Source: Candidatus Omnitrophota bacterium
Lineage (GTDB): Bacteria; Omnitrophota; Gorgyraeia; Pluralincolimonadales; Pluralincolimonadaceae
Reading direction: 5' to 3'
DNA length: 64,000 nucleotides
NCBI GenBank assembly: GCA_028716565.1
Contig: JAQUPL010000003.1
Span: forward strand, 1,473-65,472
The translations under genes and the position numbers were made by a program. Below the pieces are notes generated by a model. The model did no database searches. It was not told the origin of the DNA and was given only the letters and a program-made list of their open reading frames with translations. Positions within the stretch are counted from its first letter, which is position 1. Every line of letters begins with the position of its first letter. Below are positions 1 through 10,679 of this stretch, in pieces.

Positions 1-2
1 CA

Positions 3-128
3 AATGAATTAGAAAATGAAAAGTTAAAACAATTAGATGGAGTTATCGGCTTGGGGAAAAACGTACTTCCTGACATTGATAAGTGTTTAGGCATCTTGAA
101 TAGGGCCATAGAAAATCAAACCGAATAA
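3..128 (+). CDS. 3' end of an upstream gene (partial), product unknown
   Basis: Open frame from the window edge to TAA at 126-128. Low GC like the rest of the island. No motif recognised. Confidence 0.25.
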   Translation, partial: NELENEKLKQLDGVIGLGKNVLPDIDKCLGILNRAIENQTE

Positions 129-175
129 AATTTAGCAGTATCATGTTGAAAAGTTTTTGAAAGGCAAAATCGGAT

Positions 176-1945
176 ATGGAAAACGATAGAAATTATAAAG
201 GTGCGTTACGCCTTGATTGGATAAATAAGAGCCTTTCGCTCTATTACGAGATTGACGAAAAAGAAGGGAAAGGTGTTCGGCCAGTTTGGGTGGCAAGAAA
301 TGACATCCGCGTTGCCGAACCACGCATTTTAAAGTTTCAAAAACACTACGGTGATGTAAAGAGCGAGAATGTGCTTATAAAAGGCGATAACCTTTTAGTC
401 CTTCGGAGTTTAGTTGAAATGTTTAAGGGCCGGCCGGACAAAGAAAAAGTGAAGTGTATTTATATTGATCCGCCATTTAATACCGGCAACGCTTTTAAGT
501 ATTATGATGATAACCTTCGACATTCTGAATGGTTAACAATGATGAGGGACCGTTTATATCTTTTGCGCAAGTTGATGAAAAAAGACGGGGTCATCTTCGT
601 AAATATCGACAACGACGAATTGCATTATCTTAAAGTTATAATGGATGAAATTTTCGGTAGAGAAAATTACATCACGACGGTTGCAATGAAAGCAAAGGCC
701 CCATCCGGCGTAGCGACTGGAAGCATGATTTTTGACGTCTCTCAATACCTACTTTGTTATCGTGGACCGCAGAAGCCAAAAGTTTATAAAAATAAAATCA
801 TTAAAGAAATTATTGATGAATCATCAAAAACAGCTGAACAGTATAGCTTACTTTTTGTAGATGAAGGGAAACAAGGAAAAGTCGTTAATGAATTGAAAAC
901 TAAAAGTGGGAATGTAATAAAAATAAAAAAACATACGAATTATAAAATTAAAAGAATTTCTAATGGAGAAAAGAACGTTGCCTGCTACTTAAAGAATTTT
1001 GATAAAATCTTCAGGACAGCAACTCTCTCCGGTGGGATCGAAAAACAGATAAAAAAACTCATACCTGACAGTGGCCTCTATTCATACATTCATGTGCCGA
1101 ACAAAGGAAAGTATGCTGATATTCCAACAAAGTATTATGTTTATAATAAAGAAGGTGTTTTATTTTTGAAAGAGGTTGCCGAAATTGCTGAAATTGAAGA
1201 CGAGAAAGGCGATTTAGCAAAAGTTCCAGCAAAACTAGAGTTAGTCAGTAATATATTTACAGATGATTTGTGGCAAGGTATTTCGGGAGAAGGCGATGTT
1301 GAGTTTCAGCAAAACAAAAAACCAGAGAAATTGATTCAGCGTTTATTAGAGTTAGTAACGTGTAAGGATGATTTAGTATTAGATATTTTTGCCGGCTCTG
1401 GAACAACCGCAGCGGTAGCGCATAAACTTGGCCGGCGCTGGATAACTGTAGAAATTGGCAGACAAGCAGAAGAGTTAATCATTCCTCGTCTTTTAAGAGT
1501 TGTTAATGGAAAAGATCAGACTGGGATTAGCAAAGATATAAATTGGAAAGGCCAAGGTGGTTTTAAGTACTATCAGCTCGGGGAAAGTGTAATACACGAA
1601 CATGACATGAACTGGGCTCTGAAGTCAGGGGAAATGGCGGAAGCTATCTTTTTGCATTTTCAATATAGACCCGTGAAAGCAGATTGGCTGAAAAATGAAA
1701 ATATGCATCTAGGCAAACATCAATCGGCCCGTTATAACTTTGCCCTTGCCTTTGCTTCAAGTAAAATTGAGACATTAACGGAAGATTTATACGAAACAAT
1801 TGTTATTGAGTTGGCTAAGGAGAAATTCAAGCATTTAACAATTTTTACCAATGTTGCAGTTTCTGTGCCTCCGGCGTCGCTTGACGAGCGTATTTTGATA
1901 AAGAAAATACCGGCAGCAATTTTGAGAGAATACAATTTGCTATGA
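176..1945 (+). CDS. mod: Type III R-M methyltransferase (Mod), beta-class N6-adenine MTase
   Basis: 589 aa. Motif IV IYIDPPFNTG lies near the N-terminus and motif I VLDIFAGSGTTAAVA near the C-terminus, with a variable (TRD) region between them. Stop overlaps the res start (ATGA). Confidence 0.8.
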   Translation: MENDRNYKGALRLDWINKSLSLYYEIDEKEGKGVRPVWVARNDIRVAEPRILKFQKHYGDVKSENVLIKGDNLLVLRSLVEMFKGRPDKEKVKCIYIDPPFNTGNAFKYYDDNLRHSEWLTMMRDRLYLLRKLMKKDGVIFVNIDNDELHYLKVIMDEIFGRENYITTVAMKAKAPSGVATGSMIFDVSQYLLCYRGPQKPKVYKNKIIKEIIDESSKTAEQYSLLFVDEGKQGKVVNELKTKSGNVIKIKKHTNYKIKRISNGEKNVACYLKNFDKIFRTATLSGGIEKQIKKLIPDSGLYSYIHVPNKGKYADIPTKYYVYNKEGVLFLKEVAEIAEIEDEKGDLAKVPAKLELVSNIFTDDLWQGISGEGDVEFQQNKKPEKLIQRLLELVTCKDDLVLDIFAGSGTTAAVAHKLGRRWITVEIGRQAEELIIPRLLRVVNGKDQTGISKDINWKGQGGFKYYQLGESVIHEHDMNWALKSGEMAEAIFLHFQYRPVKADWLKNENMHLGKHQSARYNFALAFASSKIETLTEDLYETIVIELAKEKFKHLTIFTNVAVSVPPASLDERILIKKIPAAILREYNLL

Positions 1946-4662
1946 AAACTAAATCGCAAACATTTTATGACTTAGTAAGTCAGGATCAGCAATACAAAAT
2001 CGCTATTGGTTCGCCGTCGCCAAAAACAATTGAAAATTACGATAAAATACAGCACTTGCTCAAGTTCGCCCTACGTCCTTATCAAATAGAAGCATTGAGC
2101 GCATTTCAGCTTTTTTGGAAAAATGGCTTTGACAGCCGGAGCTTAAAACAAAAGACTCTTCAACAAGAGAAAAATAATGAAGGCAAACTTGTAGAATGGC
2201 ATAAAGTTGGCTTTGAAATGGCAACCGGATCCGGCAAAACGCTTCTTATGGGCGCAATAATTTTGGATTTGTATCACAAAGGATTTAAGGATTTTCTCAT
2301 TTTGACCCCAAACACAATTTTATTTGATAAGACGATCGAAAACTTTACCCCTCGCGCGGTGAAAAGTATTTTTGGGGACGGCTGGAATTTAACCTACAAC
2401 TTAGTAAGTGGCAATTCATATCGGGACAAAACCTGCAACTACGAGGAAGATCGCGACATTTCATTCTATGTGTTTAATATGCAGAAGTTTTATGACAAAA
2501 CCGCTTCGTCAGGGCAAAAGGATGGCGAAGATACAATGAAAGGCACTCCGTATGTGCGCCGTCCGCTTGAGGATTCGTTGTGGCGTGATAAGAGTGGAAA
2601 TCATACCATTTCGTTTGTAGAATTTTTGCGCGAACGCCGGCCGGTTATTATTTCCGACGAAGCACATCACTATCAACAAAAGCAAACTACAGAAGCCATT
2701 TTTGAGTTTTTGCCGGGGATAGTGCTTGAATTTACCGCAACATCGCTTGAAAAAGGTGGAAGCGAAAGTTTTGGGCAAGATAATCTCTACAAGTATCCAA
2801 TGCAGAGATACATCAATGAGAGATACGGCAAGAGAATTTTTGCCGTCGGTTGCGGAACAGGCGACGATAAAACGCCGGATATAGTAACTGATAGTGATAA
2901 GCAAAAGTTGGTGTGGGGCATGTTAATACACTTGCTTAAATACGAGGCGCTTTCGGCTGTAAATGCTCCAGTGAAAAAAGCAATGTTGCTTACCAGGGCG
3001 AGATCAATCAAGCATGCGGATGCAATTGATATTTATCTCCGAAACTGGCCGGCTTCAACAGGAAACGAGATCGAAGATGTATTAGAGCAAGTTAACAGAG
3101 AAGGAACGGATATCGCTAAAATTGTTAGACAATATATGCCCAAGAAAAAAACGGAGCTAATTGAAAAATTAACGCGAATAGCAAAATCAGTTTTTACCAT
3201 TCATAGCGAAAACAAAAGCCAAGAAGAGGTTTTGGCAGATTACCAGTCGCTTGATGACAACGAAACGGAGATTGTTAATCAAGTTCGCATATTTACTGAA
3301 GGTGTTGATTATGACAATTTTTATACGATTGTAGTTTTGGGCGATACTGTTCAAAAAGTTGGACTTGTAGCAGCTCAACTTATCGGTCGCGGGTTGCGGC
3401 TTTATAAAGAAAAGCGAGAATTTGATGTTTTAGGACATGATTTGAAAGAGCAGAGCGAAATTTTACATGTGATTTGTGAACGTGGTCATCGGTTCGACCA
3501 GATCGTTAATGAAATAAGGCAGAATCTTCAGTTGTCAACATTAACCATAGAAATACCAACTGAGGAGGAAGACCGAGAAAACAAAGTTAATCGAAAGATT
3601 ATCGATGACTACGAAATCCCAATTTTACAAATCAAGCCAATCGCTACTGGAAAAAGTTTTGAGGACGCATTAAAAGATAAATCACTCAGCATTGCGGCGT
3701 TTATAGACGAAGTGTGTGTAGTTTTAAAGGGCGAAAAAGTTTTGAAGCCAGAAGTTTTGGCGATGGTAGATTATGCCGAGATTACAGCAGATGAAATTAC
3801 ATTGCAAGGAGACAAACCGAAGACAACTCGACGAACAATAGCTTTAGCAAAAACTGATATTGCGCATTGGGCATTAGATTTTATTGAGCAAACGGGATCA
3901 TTTATAGGAAATAATTCTTTTAACACGGCAAAGAAACTGATCGAAGCAATAACCAACTCTGGAATACAGGTTGATACCGCTTACGGTATTGATTATAAGC
4001 GTGCACTCAAGGCATTAAAGAAAAGCATTATTTGGTTTTATGGAAAAAAATCATTCGAAATTATGTTCAAAGGTCAATTCAATTTCCAGAAGAAGAACGT
4101 GAAGAATATTTTTATGGACGAGATAATTACAGTGCGTAAACGAGATGGATTAACGATGAATTTAATTCCATCTCATCAGCCGATGTCTTCACACCTGCAA
4201 CAAAAAGGAATTATCGTTGAAGGGTATAAATATTCTGTTAGGCCATATGTAAAGTTTGATTCTCCACCAGAAAAATGGGTTGCTGATGCACTCGAACATC
4301 TTTGTGAGTTGGATAAAAAGAAAAAAAGCTTTTGGGTCAGAAATGAACCAAAGACTGAATACTCCGTTGAAGTAAAGCCAGCTCCATTTTATCCCGATTT
4401 TCTTGCGTTTATTGGCGGAAAATGGATTATCGTTGACGTAAAAGGTAAACATCTTGCAGAAGGAAAACAGATTGACGATCGTAAGAAGGCCCTAAAGCTT
4501 TTGGACAAAAAAGGCGGTATTAAAACTTTTTTCCTTGTTGATAACGTTATGGAAAATAAAGGCTTCAAAGCAGTCGAAATTGCGACTGTTAATGATTTTG
4601 AAGGATTTGATGAATTGCGGCATGAAGAACTTAGCATTGAGGAATTTATCAAAAAGATGTGA
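1942..4662 (+). CDS. res: Type III restriction enzyme Res subunit (SF2 helicase plus C-terminal PD-(D/E)xK nuclease)
   Basis: 906 aa. Walker A EMATGSGKTLLMG, DEAH box ISDEAHHY, C-terminal YPDF...IIVDVKGK nuclease-like core. Translationally coupled to mod. Confidence 0.8.
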   Translation: MKTKSQTFYDLVSQDQQYKIAIGSPSPKTIENYDKIQHLLKFALRPYQIEALSAFQLFWKNGFDSRSLKQKTLQQEKNNEGKLVEWHKVGFEMATGSGKTLLMGAIILDLYHKGFKDFLILTPNTILFDKTIENFTPRAVKSIFGDGWNLTYNLVSGNSYRDKTCNYEEDRDISFYVFNMQKFYDKTASSGQKDGEDTMKGTPYVRRPLEDSLWRDKSGNHTISFVEFLRERRPVIISDEAHHYQQKQTTEAIFEFLPGIVLEFTATSLEKGGSESFGQDNLYKYPMQRYINERYGKRIFAVGCGTGDDKTPDIVTDSDKQKLVWGMLIHLLKYEALSAVNAPVKKAMLLTRARSIKHADAIDIYLRNWPASTGNEIEDVLEQVNREGTDIAKIVRQYMPKKKTELIEKLTRIAKSVFTIHSENKSQEEVLADYQSLDDNETEIVNQVRIFTEGVDYDNFYTIVVLGDTVQKVGLVAAQLIGRGLRLYKEKREFDVLGHDLKEQSEILHVICERGHRFDQIVNEIRQNLQLSTLTIEIPTEEEDRENKVNRKIIDDYEIPILQIKPIATGKSFEDALKDKSLSIAAFIDEVCVVLKGEKVLKPEVLAMVDYAEITADEITLQGDKPKTTRRTIALAKTDIAHWALDFIEQTGSFIGNNSFNTAKKLIEAITNSGIQVDTAYGIDYKRALKALKKSIIWFYGKKSFEIMFKGQFNFQKKNVKNIFMDEIITVRKRDGLTMNLIPSHQPMSSHLQQKGIIVEGYKYSVRPYVKFDSPPEKWVADALEHLCELDKKKKSFWVRNEPKTEYSVEVKPAPFYPDFLAFIGGKWIIVDVKGKHLAEGKQIDDRKKALKLLDKKGGIKTFFLVDNVMENKGFKAVEIATVNDFEGFDELRHEELSIEEFIKKM

Positions 4663-4684
4663 GGAAGAGAGGAAAAACAAAGAA

Positions 4685-5413
4685 ATGACTTTAAACAAAA
4701 GGAATGATTATGGTGATTATCAGTTCGGCCAAGCTGATAAAGGCAATTCTCTGACAAAAGCAACGGATTTCGTCAAAGAAATCGTAAAGGATGCATCTCC
4801 TTTTTTGGATGCCTGCGAATATTATAATTCTGAAAAAAAACTAGGTAAAGCTCCTGCGGTTGAATTGCCAGGCGGCAAACTTGTTATCGCCCCAGATGTT
4901 ATTTGCCGAACAAAAAAGGGAAATATTTTTTGGATTGAAGCAAAAGATAAATCTCAAAGATTCTACAAACCCGACACAGGAGCTGATCTTTTTCAAGTGT
5001 ATGGTTGGTATAAGGTTTGGTCTAAGTTAAATCAGCCAGTATTTATAGTTTTTAAAGACCCTGATTTTGATTCATGTTTGCCAAGAAAAACTGTAGATCG
5101 AAAATTGGTCGAGACCTTTAAAAAGCGCTGGGAATTGTTTAAAGGGAGACCTTATGGTGGCTGGTTAAACACATTACTTGTACTCCAAGAACAATATCCT
5201 CAGATTTTCGCTGAAAGATCAAGAGATATTCCCATGTTTATTTTCTATTTCCTCGTTTATTTAATGCAAGGCAATATTACTTGGGAGAAAATAATTAACG
5301 ATTTAGACAGCGACACTATTGGTGACATCCAAAAGGAAATTAGCGCTTATTTTGAGGGAAGATTGATAAATGAAAATGAAATTGAAGCGAAAATAAAAGA
5401 ACTTTTTTCTTAA
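4685..5413 (+). CDS. Hypothetical protein with Hjc/YraN-like PD-(D/E)xK core (cassette gene A)
   Basis: ATG at 4685 is preceded by GAGGAAGAGAGG. Ordered E (VELPGG) ... PD (IAPDVI) ... IFWIEAKDKS. The 292-aa ORF-track start at 4535 overlaps res and is probably too far upstream. Confidence 0.5.
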   Translation: MTLNKRNDYGDYQFGQADKGNSLTKATDFVKEIVKDASPFLDACEYYNSEKKLGKAPAVELPGGKLVIAPDVICRTKKGNIFWIEAKDKSQRFYKPDTGADLFQVYGWYKVWSKLNQPVFIVFKDPDFDSCLPRKTVDRKLVETFKKRWELFKGRPYGGWLNTLLVLQEQYPQIFAERSRDIPMFIFYFLVYLMQGNITWEKIINDLDSDTIGDIQKEISAYFEGRLINENEIEAKIKELFS

Positions 5414-5499
5414 AATGTACGTTCAAAACAAAGCGAATAACACCCCTTATCAAAGTCTTTTCATAAGAGCTTTTTTCTCTCATTTAAAATATAGGGTAA

Positions 5500-6312
5500 A
5501 TGCCGGCACGCATGGCACTGAGAAAAACAAGAAACGTGTCTATGGATAAGTATGTTACCAGCAAGACGGGCGTTAAGGTTTATAGGGATTATCGCGATCA
5601 GGTAACGATAGATAAAGACAACCCACTTCTTAAGACTAAAGCAAGCCTACCGAGAGAAACCTATAACAGAGGAATCATAAAAGGACTATCCAGATTCGGT
5701 AGTGAGAATAGTGAAGACATCAAGACTTGGAATGTATTTAGATCGCTACAATTGAATAAAAACATGAAAAAGTATTATGGATTGATAGGCTTGCAGGATG
5801 ATTGTGAGAGAATGCTATTCTGGGGGATGGATGCTGATACCTGCAAATTCGACAAAGACTTAAAATCGGTTCTTGATAAAATAGAACCGCCTACATTATG
5901 GACCGTGCAACAGACAGAGCCAGATGTTGTGATTATAGGAAAGAATTCAGTTGTATTTAATGAGTCAAAGCTAGGCAAGCCCGAGGCTAATATCGATGCG
6001 TGGAACCGCAAAGATGAGTTTTCAGATAAGCATAAGCTTTATAGAAAGAATGCCGAAAAATACTTTAAGAAAAGTTTTATAAATGACTTCGATTTACAGG
6101 GTAGGAGGTTTTATCAATTGGTCCGTAATTACATAATAGGCTCAAGTTTTGCTGAAAAATTAAATAAAAAGTTTTATTTAACGACTTTGGTTAGCAAAGA
6201 CAATAAGGCGATAAGTGGCCTATCCCACAAGGCAGAATTTGATCTGTTTTGCTCAAACTTGCAAGGTAGCTCTACTTGCTATTTATTGACTTGGGACCAA
6301 TTGGATAGTTAG
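5500..6312 (+). CDS. Hypothetical protein with second PD-(D/E)xK-like core (cassette gene B)
   Basis: 270 aa. TEPDVVIIGKNSVVFNESKLGK gives D...ExK. Start uncertain; alternative ATGs at 5512 and 5542. Confidence 0.45.
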   Translation: MPARMALRKTRNVSMDKYVTSKTGVKVYRDYRDQVTIDKDNPLLKTKASLPRETYNRGIIKGLSRFGSENSEDIKTWNVFRSLQLNKNMKKYYGLIGLQDDCERMLFWGMDADTCKFDKDLKSVLDKIEPPTLWTVQQTEPDVVIIGKNSVVFNESKLGKPEANIDAWNRKDEFSDKHKLYRKNAEKYFKKSFINDFDLQGRRFYQLVRNYIIGSSFAEKLNKKFYLTTLVSKDNKAISGLSHKAEFDLFCSNLQGSSTCYLLTWDQLDS

Positions 6313-6383
6313 TTCGGGAAAACTTAGAGCGATCCAAGAGATGCCAGCGCGTAATAAATATTCTGCGTGGACGTGAGGAAGAA

Positions 6384-7124
6384 GTGAGGAAATCTCCAAA
6401 CAATAGCAGATACTTGAGGATAGATACTCGACCATTTTGGCGTACTGTCATTGTCTATACAGAAAAGGAAAAGAAAGAGATTCAGGCATATTTCCCAAAG
6501 GAAAAGCAAAAGGTTGCTCTGAAGGAAACTGCAGAGCATGTTTCTACATTGGTTAGATGGTTGAGCCCGGATATAACCCTAAAAAATATTAAACGTAAGG
6601 AAAGCGTCCAGCAGTTGCAGGCATTACATGATCATCTGCAGTCTTTAGAAAATACATTGCAAGCTTATTTACAGCAAGGCTCACATCAAAATACAATTAA
6701 GCTTAAGCAGCAATTTTATAGTTTTATTCATCCGGAATACCCCCAGATAACATTGCAGACATTAAACGATTTAATTTTGTATCTTAAATTAGCATGTAAA
6801 GAAGTTATGAAAAATCCCGGAAAACCTGGATGGAAAGATCAGAGCTATCATGAAGCCGTTGAGAACTTAGCTGCCGTTTGGAAGAACCATACCAATAAGG
6901 AGCCCAAGCTCCAAAATAAGTGCTATAAAGTTGACGAATATCAAAATAGTCAAAAGACGTGCGGGCCGTTTCTGGACTATCTCAATATCTCCATTAAATC
7001 CGCTATTTGTCATGCCAATAAACAGCGTAGAAAAAAAATCTCCCTAAATGTAAGTCTTGCCAATGTCGCCAGAGATGTCATTCGTTGCCGGAAAAAATCT
7101 ATGGCGGAAATCTCTTCAAAATAG
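6384..7124 (+). CDS. Hypothetical protein (cassette gene C), basic C-terminal tail
   Basis: 246 aa. GTG start inside the duplicated GTGAGGAAgaaGTGAGGAA. No motif recognised. Low GC, same strand and spacing as A and B. Confidence 0.4.
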   Translation: MRKSPNNSRYLRIDTRPFWRTVIVYTEKEKKEIQAYFPKEKQKVALKETAEHVSTLVRWLSPDITLKNIKRKESVQQLQALHDHLQSLENTLQAYLQQGSHQNTIKLKQQFYSFIHPEYPQITLQTLNDLILYLKLACKEVMKNPGKPGWKDQSYHEAVENLAAVWKNHTNKEPKLQNKCYKVDEYQNSQKTCGPFLDYLNISIKSAICHANKQRRKKISLNVSLANVARDVIRCRKKSMAEISSK

Positions 7125-7195
7125 CCCAAAAATCTCCATAAGCGTTATTAACGTCTTCACGCTATACTCTGCCTTATAAAGAAGAGGTAACGAAA

Positions 7196-7513
7196 ATGAA
7201 GACGTTAATATCAATCTCCGAAATCCAAATCATTCCAGTTAAACCAAATAACGGTCTCATAGCATTTGCCTCCTGCGTAGTAAATAATCAATTCTACATA
7301 GGCAATATTGCAATCTACACTTCTTTATCAAGTCAAGCCGGTTATAGGCTAGTCTATCCCACCAAAGTTTTACCTAACGGAAAGGCCTTAAGCTGTATTT
7401 ATCCTATTAACAAGATTGTAGGTAGCGCCGTACAGGAGGCTATTATAAATAAATATGAAGACTTGATGAAAAAGGTGGTGGGAAAGAATGAAGCGATTAA
7501 CGCCGGCTTGTAG
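7196..7513 (+). CDS. spoVG: SpoVG-family nucleic-acid-binding protein
   Basis: 105 aa. The pattern IQIIPVKPNNGLIAFASCVVNNQFYIGNIAIY...LPNGKALSCIYPINKIVGSAVQEAIINKY matches the SpoVG core (V..G..AfAS....N.F.I..I...nG...PIN...Q.AI...Y). RBS AAGAGG precedes it. Confidence 0.6.
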   Translation: MKTLISISEIQIIPVKPNNGLIAFASCVVNNQFYIGNIAIYTSLSSQAGYRLVYPTKVLPNGKALSCIYPINKIVGSAVQEAIINKYEDLMKKVVGKNEAINAGL

Positions 7514-7943
7514 ATCGTTTTTGTACTATTTAATGAATCAATATACTTACTTCAGTAAAAATGGGAAGTTGGCGGGAGATGGGTCATTTTTTAAAGCAGA
7601 CTCTGAAGCGGCAGGGTATTTGGGTGTATGCCCAAGAACAATCAAAAGGTGCAGAGGTCACTTAAAGGAGATAGGTAAAATAAAAGCCGCAGAGGGTAAA
7701 TGGAGTGGTAATGCCACACGATATTGGCTATTAGAAAAGGATGACAAAATGTCACCCTTTCAGTCAGGCATAAAGGACGACAAATTGTCCGCAAAGGTTG
7801 ACAAATTGTCCAATAAAGGGTGTCAAAATGTTACCCCAAATAAAGAAAAGAAAGAGATAAATCAAGAGACATTAAATGATCTTCAAATACAAGAAATGCA
7901 CAATGCATTTCAAGAAACTATCAAAAAATCTTTCTCCAAATAA
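7488..7943 (+). CDS. RepA_N-like replication initiator / winged-helix DNA-binding protein
   Basis: N-terminus FLYYLMNQYTYFSKNGKL...GSFFKADSEAAGYLGVCPRTIKRCRGHLKEIGKI fits the RepA_N pattern (KNGW.DENG.VYI.FT.EEL...LGIS..TV.KA.KELEE.GLI). RBS GGTGG. Followed by an iteron-like region. Confidence 0.5.
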   Translation: MKRLTPACRSFLYYLMNQYTYFSKNGKLAGDGSFFKADSEAAGYLGVCPRTIKRCRGHLKEIGKIKAAEGKWSGNATRYWLLEKDDKMSPFQSGIKDDKLSAKVDKLSNKGCQNVTPNKEKKEINQETLNDLQIQEMHNAFQETIKKSFSK

Positions 7944-7958
7944 AGGAGGTTCGTCAAA

Positions 7959-8147
7959 ATGAAATCATTAACGCCGATAAAGGCGATTAGAGCCAAATGC
8001 CTTATCTGCTCAGCGCAGCAACCATCAGAGGTCCGTAACTGCGTGATATTAGACTGCCCTTTATTTCACTACAGGTTTGGCAAGAACCCAAATAGGGGTG
8101 GCATAGGGGGCCAAACTTCAATTCCTGTACAGGAAAACAGTAGCTGA
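7959..8147 (+). CDS. Small Zn-ribbon protein (CxxC...CxxxxC)
   Basis: 62 aa with CLIC...CVILDC. RBS AAGGAGG lies 7 nt upstream. Confidence 0.4.
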   Translation: MKSLTPIKAIRAKCLICSAQQPSEVRNCVILDCPLFHYRFGKNPNRGGIGGQTSIPVQENSS

Positions 8148-8149
8148 GT

Positions 8150-8375
8150 AGGGGTTATTGGCCGGAAGCCAGCAGAAGCATATCTGGCTAACCCTAAAAG
8201 TATCAATTTGAATATACGTGCGTGAGTGCGTAAAAAATGAGGGAAATAGGCAATATAAAAAAGGTAACAAGGTAATGAAGGTAATGTATATAAAAAGGTA
8301 AGAAAGTAATGTGAAATAAGGTAAAAAGGTTCGAAAGGTTCGGTAAATGCACCTAAAAAGCAGGAAACCCAAGCT
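8150..8375. repeat. AT-rich iteron-like direct-repeat block (AAGGTAA x6, AAAGGTTCG x2, GTGCGT x2)
   Basis: Seen directly: AAGGTAAcAAGGTAATGAAGGTAATG...AAGGTAAG...AAGTAATG...AAGGTAAAAAGGTTCGAAAGGTTCGG, and GTGCGTGAGTGCGT at 8218-8231. Non-coding, between the Zn-ribbon gene and xis. Confidence 0.5.
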
Positions 8376-8405
8376 TAAATGGCAGGGAATGGAAGCATAG
8401 GTTAT

Positions 8406-8591
8406 ATGGAAAAACGATTTTTAGGCATGGAAGAAGCTTCTGAATACTTAGGCTTAACCAAGGGGACTCTCTATGGCTGGGTTTGCCACAAGAAGATCCC
8501 TTACTTAAAAATAGGCCGACTGGTAAAGTTTGATCTGCGCGAGATAGAGGCCTGGCTTAAAGACAGGAGGGTAAAAAGTGTCGAATTATAG
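8406..8591 (+). CDS. xis: Excisionase / AlpA-type HTH DNA-binding protein
   Basis: EASEYLGLTKGTLYGWVCHKKIPYLKIGRLVKFDLREIEAWL matches the excisionase-family HTH. Alternative starts at 8379 and 8427. Confidence 0.6.
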   Translation: MEKRFLGMEEASEYLGLTKGTLYGWVCHKKIPYLKIGRLVKFDLREIEAWLKDRRVKSVEL

Positions 8592-8676
8592 CTTGACTTC
8601 CCCCTCACTTCAGGGTAGTCTTGTGACTGACGGCTATACTATAACACATTGAAATACAATAGGTTATATCAAAAAT

Positions 8677-9762
8677 ATGGCGATAAGAGAACGCGACGGT
8701 AAATACTTTATAGACTATTACGCCAATGGACACAGGGTTCGCGAGGCCATAAGCGGCAGCAGGGCTCTTGCCGAAAAAGTCTTACGCAAGAGACAGAGCG
8801 CGATTGATGAGAACAGATACTTGGATATCAAGCGCAGCGAAAAGATCAGATTTGAGGATTTCCTCGAAGACTACCTTGAGCACCATTCGAAGCTAAATAA
8901 CCGCTCCTGGAAACGCGCCGAGATACCAAACATGAAGCGCCTTAAGGCGTACTTTTCAGGGCGCCTTTTGCAGGAAATCACCCCTCTCGATGTCGAGAAG
9001 TTTAAGGCCAAAACTTTAACCGAGGTCAGCCCCGCCACAACCAATCGTTGCCTCGCGCTTCTTAAGTCCATGTTTAATAAGGCGACCATCTGGGGAAAGC
9101 TTAACGGCCCGAACCCGGTTAAGGGGATAAAGCTATTCAGAGAAGAGAGCCGGCTTCGTTTTCTTGAGAAAGAAGAGATCGCCACGCTCCTTAAGTATTG
9201 CAACGGATACTTATATCCAGTCGTTACCGTTGCTTTGCATACCGGAATGCGAAAGTCAGAGATCCTAAACCTTAAATGGCATGATGTCGATTTTAGCCGC
9301 GATAACATATATTTAAGCCAGACTAAGAACGGGGAGAAAAGAGAGGTTTCCATGAACTCCCTGGTGAGGTCAACGCTTATCAAAGTAAGGAAGCATCCGA
9401 GCAGCCCTTATATTTTTGTAAACGCAAAGGGAAAACCCTATACTGATATACGAAAATCATTCCACGCAGCCCTGCATAAGGCCGGCATAAGAGACTTTAG
9501 GTTCCACGACCTAAGGCATACCTTTGCCTCGCAATTGGCGATGGCAGGGGTGGACCTGAACTCCATCAGGGAGCTTATGGGGCATAAGTCAATCAAGATG
9601 ACGCTACGCTACAGCCACCTATCGTCCGGCCATAAAAAACGAGCCGTTGAGGCATTAAACAACCAGATAGGCACGATTTGGGCACAAGAGCCGGTTAACA
9701 AGACAGAGGAAACGGCCACACCGTCACAATTGTTGACAAATTCGGGGGTTATGGTAATATGA
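8677..9762 (+). CDS. int: Tyrosine site-specific integrase
   Basis: 361 aa. C-terminal catalytic box HDLRHTFASQLAMAGVDLNSIRELMGHKSIKMTLRYSHL (R...HxxR...Y). Confidence 0.9.
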   Translation: MAIRERDGKYFIDYYANGHRVREAISGSRALAEKVLRKRQSAIDENRYLDIKRSEKIRFEDFLEDYLEHHSKLNNRSWKRAEIPNMKRLKAYFSGRLLQEITPLDVEKFKAKTLTEVSPATTNRCLALLKSMFNKATIWGKLNGPNPVKGIKLFREESRLRFLEKEEIATLLKYCNGYLYPVVTVALHTGMRKSEILNLKWHDVDFSRDNIYLSQTKNGEKREVSMNSLVRSTLIKVRKHPSSPYIFVNAKGKPYTDIRKSFHAALHKAGIRDFRFHDLRHTFASQLAMAGVDLNSIRELMGHKSIKMTLRYSHLSSGHKKRAVEALNNQIGTIWAQEPVNKTEETATPSQLLTNSGVMVI

Positions 9763-9785
9763 AAATGGCGGACGACGAAAGCACG

Positions 9786-9835
9786 TCAGATTGTCGATCT
9801 GAAGACCGCGAGTTCAAATCTCGTCGGGCCCGCCA
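9786..9835 (+). other. attR: 3' half of tRNA-Asp(GUC), from anticodon arm to CCA, with no 5' half
   Basis: Anticodon arm TCAGA-ttGTCga-TCTGA, T-arm GCGAG-TTCAAAT-CTCGT, acceptor 3' strand CGGGCCC, discriminator G, CCA. The matching 5' strand GGGCCCG is absent upstream. Lies 24 bp after the int stop. Confidence 0.55.
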
Positions 9836-9891
9836 TGTTTTACCAGAAGGTCTTGAAAATGGATAAAATACACAAATAGGAATCAAACCAA

Positions 9892-9971: not shown

Positions 9972-10679
9972 ATGGAATATGTAATAATTTTAATTACGTT
10001 AATACTAGCAATTGTCGGAATTTGGTTTAAAAATGAATCTTCTGGGAATGTAAACTTTATAATTATTTTATTACTCGTCACGTCTACTCTGTTGAGTATT
10101 TATCTTAAGTATTCAGATACCAAAAAGTATATTTATCAAAAAGATAGCGGCAGATTAACGTTTCGGATAAGGAATAATATATCTTATCCAACGTTTTCCA
10201 TAGGTTCGGCAAAACTTGTTAAAACTGGTAATGATTTCGTGCTTTTTAATATATTAGGGGACGATTTGGATGTAAAAATAGAAAAATCATACCTTTTCTG
10301 GAAATTATTTCCTCGTAGTCAGTATAAACTCAATCTTACGTTAAGAAACGAGAAAAACGAAATATTGGCAAAGGTTAAAGATAATGTTTGGCAAAGGAAT
10401 CCGATTTTAACGTTAGATAAAAATTTTACTAAAGATGCATTAGAGATTTTAGATAAAGAAGGGAATGTTATATTGCGCGTTAGAATTTTGGGTGATGTTT
10501 TAGATTTTTCAGGTAGGTTTTATAGCGATACAGGTGACGGTATCGCGTTATGTGAAAGCGTAGAGCCGAAGGGAGGGCTTATGGAAATAAAGCATAATGG
10601 CGAAAAGCTAGAAGCGAGAATTAAACCTATTTTCAAATACCCCTCTGCGGAGTATCCGGGAGTCTTAGAAAAGCATTAA
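9972..10679 (+). CDS. Hypothetical membrane-anchored protein (2 N-terminal TM helices), low GC
   Basis: 235 aa. RBS AGGAGGGG. Lies outside attR but still about 33% GC. Confidence 0.5.
   Translation: MEYVIILITLILAIVGIWFKNESSGNVNFIIILLLVTSTLLSIYLKYSDTKKYIYQKDSGRLTFRIRNNISYPTFSIGSAKLVKTGNDFVLFNILGDDLDVKIEKSYLFWKLFPRSQYKLNLTLRNEKNEILAKVKDNVWQRNPILTLDKNFTKDALEILDKEGNVILRVRILGDVLDFSGRFYSDTGDGIALCESVEPKGGLMEIKHNGEKLEARIKPIFKYPSAEYPGVLEKH

What the first reader, a model, noticed from the sequence alone, without database searches (positions are those of the whole stretch)
4685..7124. Three uncharacterised genes, two with PD-(D/E)xK cores, between the Type III R-M operon and the element's replication/integration module
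Three co-directional low-GC ORFs (4685-5413, 5500-6312, 6384-7124) sit between the res stop (4662) and the SpoVG/RepA_N/xis/int module. The gaps between them are 22-86 bp. I cannot assign any of them to a named family. By eye, ORF-A has an ordered E (4862-4864) ... PD (4891-4896) ... hhhhExK (IFWIEAK, 4937-4945) core like Hjc/YraN-type endonucleases. ORF-B has TEPD (5917-5925) ... VVFNESK (5962-5970), a second such core. ORF-C has a basic C-terminal tail and a GTG start inside a duplicated GTGAGGAA. Defence genes cluster beside R-M systems on mobile islands. A two-nuclease-plus-partner cassette in this position is therefore a candidate uncharacterised defence module, or alternatively an anti-defence or addiction module.
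Basis: partly seen in the sequence, partly recalled or inferred. Interest (0 to 1): 0.8.

Follow-up and report, generated by a model that had tools for sequence, protein, structure and literature searches.

The report
Three unrelated genes, not one cassette
The three genes are real and two are true restriction-type nucleases, but they are three independent units, and the notable one is an unnamed Hjc-like nuclease that repeatedly rides along with Type III restriction-modification operons in distant microbes.

Summary
ORFs A (4685-5413), B (5500-6312) and C (6384-7124) are conserved genes. A and B have invariant PD-(D/E)xK residues and confident restriction-endonuclease-fold models.

The interpretation as a three-gene cassette fails: A, B and C never co-occur outside this island.

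- A is an unnamed, rare family with an Hjc-like core plus about 100 extra residues. In 13 of 13 independent contexts it lies beside a DNA methyltransferase. In 10 of those it is in or next to a Type III mod-res operon, often with 4-bp overlaps. The Res partners keep their own nuclease motif. A's phylogeny is decoupled from Mod/Res and from the Mod target-recognition domain. So A is a shuffled accessory nuclease of methyltransferase-based restriction systems, not a specificity-matched enzyme.
- B is a divergent member of Pfam REase-ARP. It is solitary in 80 loci, has no partner or methyltransferase, and often sits among housekeeping genes.
- C is a backbone gene of the 11.2-kb tRNA-integrated element (attR at 9807-9836). 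It travels with the SpoVG/Xis/integrase genes and different cargo.

A's mechanism is inferred, not shown.

The parts
176..1945 (+). mod: Type III methyltransferase (589 aa)
   Evidence: Pfam N6_N4_Mtase 2.7e-42. PADLOC MTase_III 5.7e-95. DPPF at residue 98 and FAGSGT at residue 405.
1942..4662 (+). res: Type III restriction subunit (906 aa) with its own C-terminal PD...DxK motif (YPDF...IIVDVKGK)
   Evidence: Pfam ResIII 2.7e-23. PADLOC REase_III. C-terminal motif read from the translation.
4685..5413 (+). ORF-A (242 aa): Hjc-like PD-(D/E)xK nuclease, the third gene of the mod-res operon. The ATG 4685 start is supported by homolog N-termini (MTLN...). NCBI's longer 263-aa call is not supported.
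4892..4945 (+). A catalytic core: P70-D71 (4892-4897) at the start of strand 2; E85-x-K87 (4937-4945) in strand 3. It is followed by the invariant DK.QRF..PDTGAD loop.
   Evidence: Invariant columns. Strand positions E72-75 and E81-88 in the model.
5500..6312 (+). ORF-B (270 aa; probable true start ATG 5542, giving 256 aa): a solitary, divergent nuclease of the REase-ARP family
5713..5970 (+). B catalytic residues: E72/D73 (5713-5718), E140-P-D142 (5917-5925), E155-S-K157 (5962-5970)
   Evidence: Invariant in 27 sequences.
6384..7124 (+). ORF-C (246 aa, GTG start): a backbone gene of the integrative element. Biochemical function unknown.
   Evidence: 61-72% identical homologs in three other integrase elements that carry different cargo. 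No family or solved-structure hit.
7196..7513 (+). SpoVG-like gene, directly downstream of C here and in L005/L006
   Evidence: Pfam SpoVG 5.1e-09. 72% identity in L005/L006.
7488..8147 (+). 151-aa and 62-aa (Cys-rich) backbone genes
   Evidence: The 151-aa protein is 47% identical in L101. The 62-aa protein is 61% identical in L099.
8379..9762 (+). Xis-like HTH_17 (8379-8591) and tyrosine integrase (8677-9762)
   Evidence: Pfam HTH_17 1.9e-12 and Phage_integrase 4.9e-37.
9807..9836 (+). attR: a 30-bp direct repeat equal to the 3' 28 nt of a tRNA (T-arm, acceptor strand, CCA). The other copy lies 1375 bp upstream of the window start, giving an element of about 11.2 kb.
   Evidence: Exact 30-mer shared with L102 positions 1-30. 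L102 is identical to window 1-9809.

Best explanation
The 2.4-kb stretch holds three functionally independent units on an 11.2-kb element integrated at a tRNA 3' end.

(1) ORF-A is the third gene of the Type III operon (mod-res-A).
- It is a metal-dependent DNA endonuclease with an Hjc-like PD-(D/E)xK core (D71, E85, K87) plus about 100 extra residues.
- It belongs to a rare unnamed family that has been recombined repeatedly with methyltransferase-based restriction systems. These are mostly Type III, and occasionally Type II-like or DISARM/Dpd-like.
- Res keeps its own nuclease, and A does not track Mod's target-recognition domain. So A is most likely a second, sequence-independent effector.
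- My preferred reading (inferred, roughly 40% of the probability for A) is a structure-specific nuclease. It would attack branched, nicked or already-engaged DNA produced when the restriction complex acts, making restriction irreversible or broadening it.
- The next reading (about 25%) is a nuclease gated by the R-M complex, a PrrC-style guardian.

(2) ORF-B is a solitary PD-(D/E)xK nuclease of the Pfam REase-ARP family, carried as separate cargo. It has no methyltransferase or fixed partner, so it most plausibly acts alone. One possibility is modification-dependent or other non-cognate DNA cleavage; this is inferred.

(3) ORF-C is not cargo. It is the most conserved backbone gene of this family of small integrase/Xis elements, and probably has a regulatory or replication role for the element. 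Its biochemistry is unknown.

Shown: gene reality, folds, invariant catalytic residues, gene neighbourhoods, lack of co-occurrence, phylogenetic decoupling, element borders.

Inferred: all activities and the mode of cooperation between A and Mod/Res.
For: A fold and motif.

A neighbourhoods:
- mod-res-A in the window, Rhodohalobacter L004 (4-bp overlap), Autumnicola L011, Tenacibaculum L012, Bacteroidales L013, L096/097 (4-bp overlap), L098 and L104.
- HTH-A-mod-res in Vogelbacteria L009/L010.
- A tail-to-tail with res-mod in L105.
- A Type II-like MTase overlapping A in Arcobacter L014.
- An MTase-Mrr fusion convergent with A in archaeal L001-3.
- A inside a DpdF/DrmMI/DrmD-like cluster in Thermus L015.
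- Sources.

Res partners retain PDF...(E/D)xKG.

Decoupling:
- Window vs L009: A 57%, Mod 81%, Res 82%.
- Window vs L096: A 67%, Mod 37%, Res 22%.
- Window vs L001: A 60%, MTase 23%.
- The Mod TRD is 9-33% identical where A is 39-67%, and 73-80% identical where A is 57%.

B: REase-ARP in 23 of 27 homologs, fold, 0 of 80 loci with A/C/Mod/Res, no conserved neighbour and no recurrent MTase.

C: always in integrase elements with mosaic SpoVG/151-aa/zf62/Xis/Int and different cargo.

Element borders.

Precedent for accessory genes embedded in R-M loci: the PrrC and PARIS discussion in PMC12707154.
Against: - No biochemical or genetic data exist for any of the three proteins.
- In Arcobacter, A is the only nuclease next to a small Type II-type MTase. 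In two loci A is convergent with the MTase or Res, as in classical Type II pairs. Both favour a plain restriction-enzyme reading.
- No invariant acidic residue is seen in helix 1, unlike Hjc.
- The sample of A contexts is small (13), and the family is rare, so A is clearly not needed by most Type III systems.
- B and A could still cooperate in this particular island even though they do not co-occur elsewhere.
- No terminator or promoter was found to separate A, B and C transcripts.
Confidence: 0.62

Rival explanations
1. One reading: A, B and C form one three-gene defence (or anti-defence or addiction) cassette with two nucleases and a partner protein.
For: - The genes are co-directional with short gaps.
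- There are no detectable terminators between them.
- They are located beside an R-M system on a mobile island.
Against: - No co-occurrence anywhere else. None of the 12 other A contexts has B or C. None of 80 B loci has A or C. None of the 3 other C elements has A or B.
- C tracks the element backbone.
- B relatives often sit among housekeeping genes.
- No PADLOC model hits any of the three.
Confidence: 0.03
2. A is a conventional sequence-specific (Type II-like) restriction endonuclease whose host protection comes from the adjacent methyltransferase. In Type III operons it would simply share Mod.
For: - It is always next to a DNA MTase (13 of 13).
- It overlaps a 306-aa Type II-type MTase in Arcobacter.
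- It is convergent with the MTase in archaeal contigs.
- A controller-like HTH lies directly upstream of A in L009.
- Type II REases appear among the fold hits.
Against: - A is 39-67% identical across systems whose Mod TRDs are only 9-33% identical, and whose MTases have different architectures (306, 462, 589 and 671 aa, and Eco57I-type). Matched specificity is therefore unlikely.
- Type III Mod methylates only one strand of an asymmetric site (established knowledge; Rao et al. 2014, cited in PMC12707154). A simple REase relying on it would cut one daughter duplex after replication.
- 12 of 13 systems already have another nuclease.
- No NCBIfam REase family matches A.
Confidence: 0.15
3. A is a latent 'guardian' toxin embedded in the R-M operon, analogous to PrrC in the EcoprrI locus. 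It would be held inactive by the Mod/Res complex and released as an abortive-infection nuclease when a phage inhibits restriction or depletes SAM.
For: - It is embedded in, and translationally coupled to, the R-M operons.
- It is an accessory present in only a small minority of Type III systems.
- It is not specificity-matched.
- There is precedent for R-M guardians and R-M-coupled toxins (PMC12707154).
Against: - A guardian needs a protein-protein interface, yet A has been swapped among Mod/Res partners with 22-37% identity, and even onto an Eco57I-type MTase cluster.
- Its fold is unrelated to PrrC.
- No sensor domain is recognisable.
- There is no direct evidence of toxicity.
Confidence: 0.2
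4. A is a repair or resolvase function that protects the host from its own R-M system. It would resolve recombination intermediates after self-restriction, which is useful in reduced genomes such as CPR bacteria, DPANN archaea and Omnitrophica.
For: - Its closest folds are Holliday-junction resolvases: Hjc and RecU.
- Several hosts are reduced-genome lineages.
- There is an analogy with vsr linked to dcm (my own knowledge).
Against: - It also occurs in Bacteroidota, Arcobacter and Thermus, which have full repair sets.
- About 100 extra residues and the lack of the helix-1 acidic residue distinguish it from true resolvases.
- It lies in defence islands next to CBASS, GmrSD and TA genes.
Confidence: 0.08

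Closest known systems
Archaeal Holliday-junction resolvase Hjc (PDB 1hh1, 2wcw, 1gef), with related RecU and fusellovirus D212
   Different: - No sequence-level relationship: Pfam, NCBIfam and PDB profile searches are all empty.
- A is twice as long.
- A has a distinctive invariant DK.QRF..PDTGAD loop and a conserved C-terminal half.
- A lacks an invariant acidic residue in helix 1.
- A is encoded in R-M operons rather than as a housekeeping gene.
Canonical two-gene Type III R-M systems (EcoP15I/EcoP1I type: Mod plus Res)
   Same: The window's mod and res have the standard domains and order, including the Res helicase and C-terminal PD-(D/E)xK.
   Different: A third, conserved nuclease gene is attached: after res in 8 operons, before mod in 1, and convergent in 1. 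It is absent from the classical systems and from the PADLOC models.
PrrC / RloC embedded in Type I hsd loci (R-M 'guardian' nucleases)
   Same: An accessory nuclease gene inserted into an R-M operon. It is modular and present in a minority of systems (PMC12707154).
   Different: PrrC is an ABC-ATPase-type anticodon RNase tied to Type Ic systems. A is a small PD-(D/E)xK DNA-nuclease fold tied to N6_N4 MTase systems. Latency and triggering are untested.
Pfam PF22558 REase-ARP ('Restriction Endonuclease associating with ARP')
   Same: 23 of 27 members of B's family match it at 35-40 bits, above the 27-bit cut-off. B's invariant E...EPD...ExK residues and REase fold agree with it.
   Different: - The window protein itself does not reach the model even at E<=10.
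- Only the C-terminal half of the profile is matched.
- No conserved partner ('ARP') was seen in 80 loci.
- I could not find a paper defining ARP.
Small tRNA-integrated integrase/Xis islands and phage satellites (PICI-like elements)
   Same: C's element family has an integrase, an AlpA/HTH_17 Xis, small regulatory genes, variable cargo, a tRNA-3'-end att repeat and, in L101, small-terminase/packaging genes.
   Different: No helper phage, primase-replicase or capsid-remodelling genes were identified here. C itself has no known counterpart.

Membership tests
PD-(D/E)xK nuclease superfamily (ORF-A) | alpha-beta-beta-beta-alpha-beta core fold | tested here: met
PD-(D/E)xK nuclease superfamily (ORF-A) | Conserved D ... 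(D/E)xK on strands 2 and 3 | tested here: met
   P70, D71, E85 and K87 are invariant in 22 sequences and lie at the predicted strands.
PD-(D/E)xK nuclease superfamily (ORF-A) | Metal-dependent phosphodiester cleavage | not testable with these tools
   Needs purified protein.
Hjc Holliday-junction resolvase family | Sequence membership (Pfam Hjc or related models) | tested here: not met
   No Pfam, NCBIfam or PHROG hit at E<=1. The PDB profile search was empty.
Hjc Holliday-junction resolvase family | Compact protein of about 120-140 aa with a catalytic acidic residue in helix 1 | tested here: not met
A is 242 aa. No invariant D/E precedes D71.
Hjc Holliday-junction resolvase family | Dimeric four-way-junction cleavage | not testable with these tools
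   No multimer prediction or assay is available.
Type II restriction endonuclease with cognate MTase (ORF-A) | Adjacent methyltransferase gene | tested here: met
   13 of 13 contexts.
Type II restriction endonuclease with cognate MTase (ORF-A) | The nuclease co-varies with the MTase specificity determinant | tested here: not met
   A is 39-67% identical where the Mod TRD is 9-33% identical. A is 57% identical where the TRD is 73-80% identical.
Type III R-M system (mod-res of the window) | Mod of the N6_N4 beta class, plus Res with an SF2 helicase and a C-terminal PD-(D/E)xK | tested here: met
Type III R-M system (mod-res of the window) | Two-subunit composition | tested here: not met
   A conserved third gene (A) is operonic in 10 independent Type III loci.
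Pfam REase-ARP PF22558 (ORF-B) | Score above the gathering cut-off (27 bits) | tested here: inconclusive
   The window protein has no hit. 23 of 27 homologs, at 36-87% identity to B, do hit. Membership is therefore by transitive homology.
Pfam REase-ARP PF22558 (ORF-B) | REase fold with catalytic E...D...ExK | tested here: met
Pfam REase-ARP PF22558 (ORF-B) | Genomic association with the 'ARP' partner | tested here: not met
   No neighbour cluster occurs in more than 6 of 80 loci. There were 101 different Pfam families among 148 neighbours. The identity of ARP could not be established.
Known anti-phage defence systems (PADLOC-DB v2) | Match to any defence-protein model | tested here: not met
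   A, B and C have 0 families at E<=1. The Thermus A homolog also has 0.
PrrC-type R-M guardian (ORF-A) | Gene embedded in an R-M operon | tested here: met
   Overlapping or closely spaced with res or mod in most loci.
PrrC-type R-M guardian (ORF-A) | Latent nuclease activated when the R-M enzyme is inhibited | not testable with these tools
   Requires genetics with anti-restriction proteins.

The most novel reading that the evidence does not exclude
ORF-A defines a previously undescribed three-component subclass of Type III (and related methyltransferase-based) restriction systems. In it, an Hjc-like nuclease is a working third subunit or a guardian. It would either cut DNA structures created by the Mod-Res complex or fire as a back-up nuclease when phages disable restriction. 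That would add a new functional layer to a class of enzymes regarded as two-subunit machines since the 1970s.
Probability: 0.3. Interest if true: 0.65.

Novelty: new variant of a known kind. Interest (0 to 1): 0.45.

Why it matters
Type III R-M systems are textbook two-gene machines. A conserved, catalytically intact third nuclease has been shuffled among unrelated Type III operons in bacteria, CPR lineages and archaea. That suggests an unrecognised auxiliary step in restriction, such as a second cut, a back-up, or damage control.

The family is absent from Pfam, NCBIfam, PADLOC and PHROGs, so current defence finders miss it.

The result also corrects a tempting over-reading. Adjacent small genes beside an R-M system are not necessarily one module: here one is an R-M accessory, one is an orphan nuclease and one belongs to the mobile element's own backbone.

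Tried and rejected
- **A supplies a nuclease that Res lacks (split Res).** Rejected: all full-length Res partners keep PDF...(E/D)xKG. Only L098's Res is truncated.
- **A, B or C match a known defence, phage or annotated family.** Nothing in Pfam, NCBIfam, PHROGs or PADLOC for the window proteins. PDB sequence-profile searches were empty.
- **Relatives on plasmids or phages.** None for A or B in either collection, and none for C in the phage collection, by tblastn. C was not searched against plasmids. The viral structure library gave only generic small endonucleases for A.
- **The fringe of 155-210-aa proteins found by the exhaustive profile search might link A to a named family.** None of the 10 tested has a Pfam hit.
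- **The recurring gene block near distant B relatives might be the 'ARP' system.** It is housekeeping synteny: Cmk, IspH, GlmS, PPDK.
- **Meaning of 'ARP' and any paper on REase-ARP.** Three literature searches found nothing.
- **Literature on a third gene in Type III systems.** No relevant paper found.
- **AFDB Foldseek search.** The library was unavailable.
- **Promoter and terminator scan.** No signal above shuffled expectation, so the transcript structure is unresolved.
- **L102 as a circular excised form.** No end overlap. The contig simply breaks at the 30-bp att repeat.
Full report
**1. The observation**

The three co-directional ORFs exist as described: A 4685-5413, B 5500-6312 and C 6384-7124, with gaps of 22, 86 and 71 nt. 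They lie in a low-GC block (0.33-0.40) that runs to about 10.7 kb; host DNA beyond that is about 0.53 GC. The source is a Candidatus Omnitrophica MAG, where the genes are annotated as hypothetical proteins PHO67_04510, 04515 and 04520.

All three are conserved genes, not chance ORFs. A has 25 homologs, B at least 68 and C 7.

- In A, P70, D71, E85 and K87 are invariant across 22 sequences. The proposed upstream E60 is not conserved.
- In B, E72/D73, E140/D142 and E155/K157 are invariant across 27 sequences.

None of the window proteins matches Pfam, NCBIfam, PHROGs or PADLOC.

**2. Folds**

- 23 of 27 B-family members hit Pfam PF22558 REase-ARP above threshold, although the window protein itself does not.

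So 'two PD-(D/E)xK cores' is confirmed. B is not strictly unassignable.

**3. Do the three genes belong together?**

No.
- tblastn with A, B, C, Mod and Res against every fetched locus shows no B or C in any other A context.
- It shows no A, C, Mod or Res in 80 B loci.
- It shows no A or B in the three other C-bearing elements.

**4. What A is**

In 13 of 13 independent contexts, A lies beside a DNA methyltransferase. In 10 of them it lies beside a full Type III mod-res pair.

| Arrangement | Where |
|---|---|
| mod-res-A | window; Rhodohalobacter (4-bp overlap); three Bacteroidota genomes; L096/097 (4-bp overlap); L098; L104 |
| HTH-A-mod-res | Vogelbacteria genome, next to CBASS |
| A tail-to-tail with res-mod | L105 |
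| Type II-type MTase overlapping A | Arcobacter |
| MTase-Mrr fusion convergent with A | archaeal contigs |
| A inside a DpdF / DrmMI / DrmD-like cluster | Thermus |

Sources.

The family is rare: 25 representatives at E<=1e-10 among 1.84 billion proteins. It is absent from the plasmid and phage collections.

Res partners keep their own PD...(E/D)xK motif, so A does not replace it.

A's evolution is decoupled from its partners:

| Comparison | A | Mod | Res |
|---|---|---|---|
| Window vs Vogelbacteria (L009) | 57% | 81% | 82% |
| Window vs L096 | 67% | 37% | 22% |
| Window vs archaeal L001 | 60% | 23% (MTase) | - |

The Mod target-recognition region is 9-33% identical where A is 39-67% identical. 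It is 73-80% identical where A is only 57%.

Type III Mod methylates only one strand (established knowledge). Together with the decoupling, this argues against a specificity-matched Type II-like enzyme. It argues for a modular, sequence-independent accessory nuclease.

I favour a structure-specific second effector that acts on DNA engaged or cut by the restriction complex. A PrrC-like guardian gated by the complex is the main alternative; the precedent is reviewed in PMC12707154. Both readings are inferences.

**5. What B is**

B is a solitary REase-ARP-family nuclease.
- Among 80 metagenomic loci, no neighbour cluster recurs in more than 6.
- The one recurring block is housekeeping synteny.
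- A pooled Pfam census of 148 flanking ORFs gave 101 families, none in more than 4 members. Housekeeping genes are the commonest, a few are Abi/TA genes, and there is no recurrent methyltransferase.

B is therefore independent cargo. A stand-alone, possibly modification-dependent nuclease is the most economical guess.

Most homologs start at the internal MDKYV, so ATG 5542 may be the true start.

**6. What C is**

C homologs at 61-72% identity occur only in small integrase/Xis elements with different cargo. The neighbouring SpoVG, 151-aa, zf62, Xis and Int genes are mosaic among them. One element carries small-terminase and packaging genes. So C is a backbone gene of the element, not a partner of A or B. 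Its biochemistry is unknown, because no family or solved-structure match was found.

**7. The element**

An independent 11,184-bp contig is identical to window 1-9809 and adds two small ORFs upstream of mod. A 30-bp direct repeat lies at its start and again at window 9807-9836. The repeat equals the T-arm, acceptor strand and CCA of a tRNA.

The element therefore reads: attL - orf173 - orf196 - mod - res - A - B - C - SpoVG - 151 aa - zf62 - Xis - Int - attR. It is about 11.2 kb long.

**8. Verdict**

The worthwhile residue is A: an unnamed Hjc-like nuclease that recurs as a third gene of Type III R-M operons. That is a new variant of a known kind, of moderate interest, and its mechanism is still to be tested.

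Noticed in passing
window 9807-9836 and L102 1-30: An exact 30-bp direct repeat equal to the 3' 28 nt of a tRNA (T-arm, acceptor strand, CCA). It defines an integrative element of about 11.2 kb, whose left end lies 1375 bp before the window start.
   Followed up: yes
window 7146-7159 / 7197-7210: A perfect 14-nt inverted repeat (TATTAACGTCTTCA / TGAAGACGTTAATA) with a 37-nt spacer. Its second arm covers the SpoVG start codon (7196). It could be an operator or a translation-blocking hairpin.
   Followed up: no
window 4656-4668 and 6370-6382: A near-identical 13-mer, GA(T/C)GTGAGGAAGA, lies just upstream of the starts of both A and C. It is probably a shared strong ribosome-binding context, but it may be chance.
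   Followed up: no
window 9972-10679: A 235-aa ORF at GC 0.30 lies just outside attR, between the element and host-GC DNA. It has no Pfam hit. It may be a remnant of another insertion at the same tRNA site.
   Followed up: partly
window 176-4662 vs L009 10753-15275: Mod and Res of this Omnitrophica island are 81-82% identical to those of a Candidatus Vogelbacteria (CPR) genome. That implies recent inter-phylum transfer of the Type III system. A differs (57%) and sits on the other side of the operon.
   Followed up: partly
L104 534-5121; L098 5397-7961: In two A-linked Type III loci, mod and/or res are split or truncated: Mod in two ORFs and Res in two ORFs in L104, and Res ending right after its PD motif in L098. 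A is intact in both. This could be phase variation, decay or assembly error.
   Followed up: no
L101 3732-4656: A C-family element carries GP3_package and Terminase_2 (small terminase) genes next to Xis and Int. This suggests the element family includes phage-satellite-like members.
   Followed up: no
L015 92-12184 (Thermus altitudinis): The most divergent A homolog sits inside a six-gene cluster: a DpdF-like helicase, a coiled-coil protein, an Eco57I/DrmMI-like MTase, a 389-aa unknown, A, and an HKD+SNF2 DrmD-like protein. It looks like a DISARM/Dpd hybrid that PADLOC models match only piecemeal.
   Followed up: partly
window 5500-5544: The start of B is ambiguous: ATG 5500 (ORF finder), ATG 5512 (NCBI, 266 aa) or ATG 5542 (the position where most homologs start).
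   Followed up: partly
L009 15282-16789: A CBASS pair (CD-NTase/SMODS plus a Cap15-like effector) directly follows HTH-A-mod-res in the Vogelbacteria contig. This is a compact defence island in a CPR genome.
   Followed up: no
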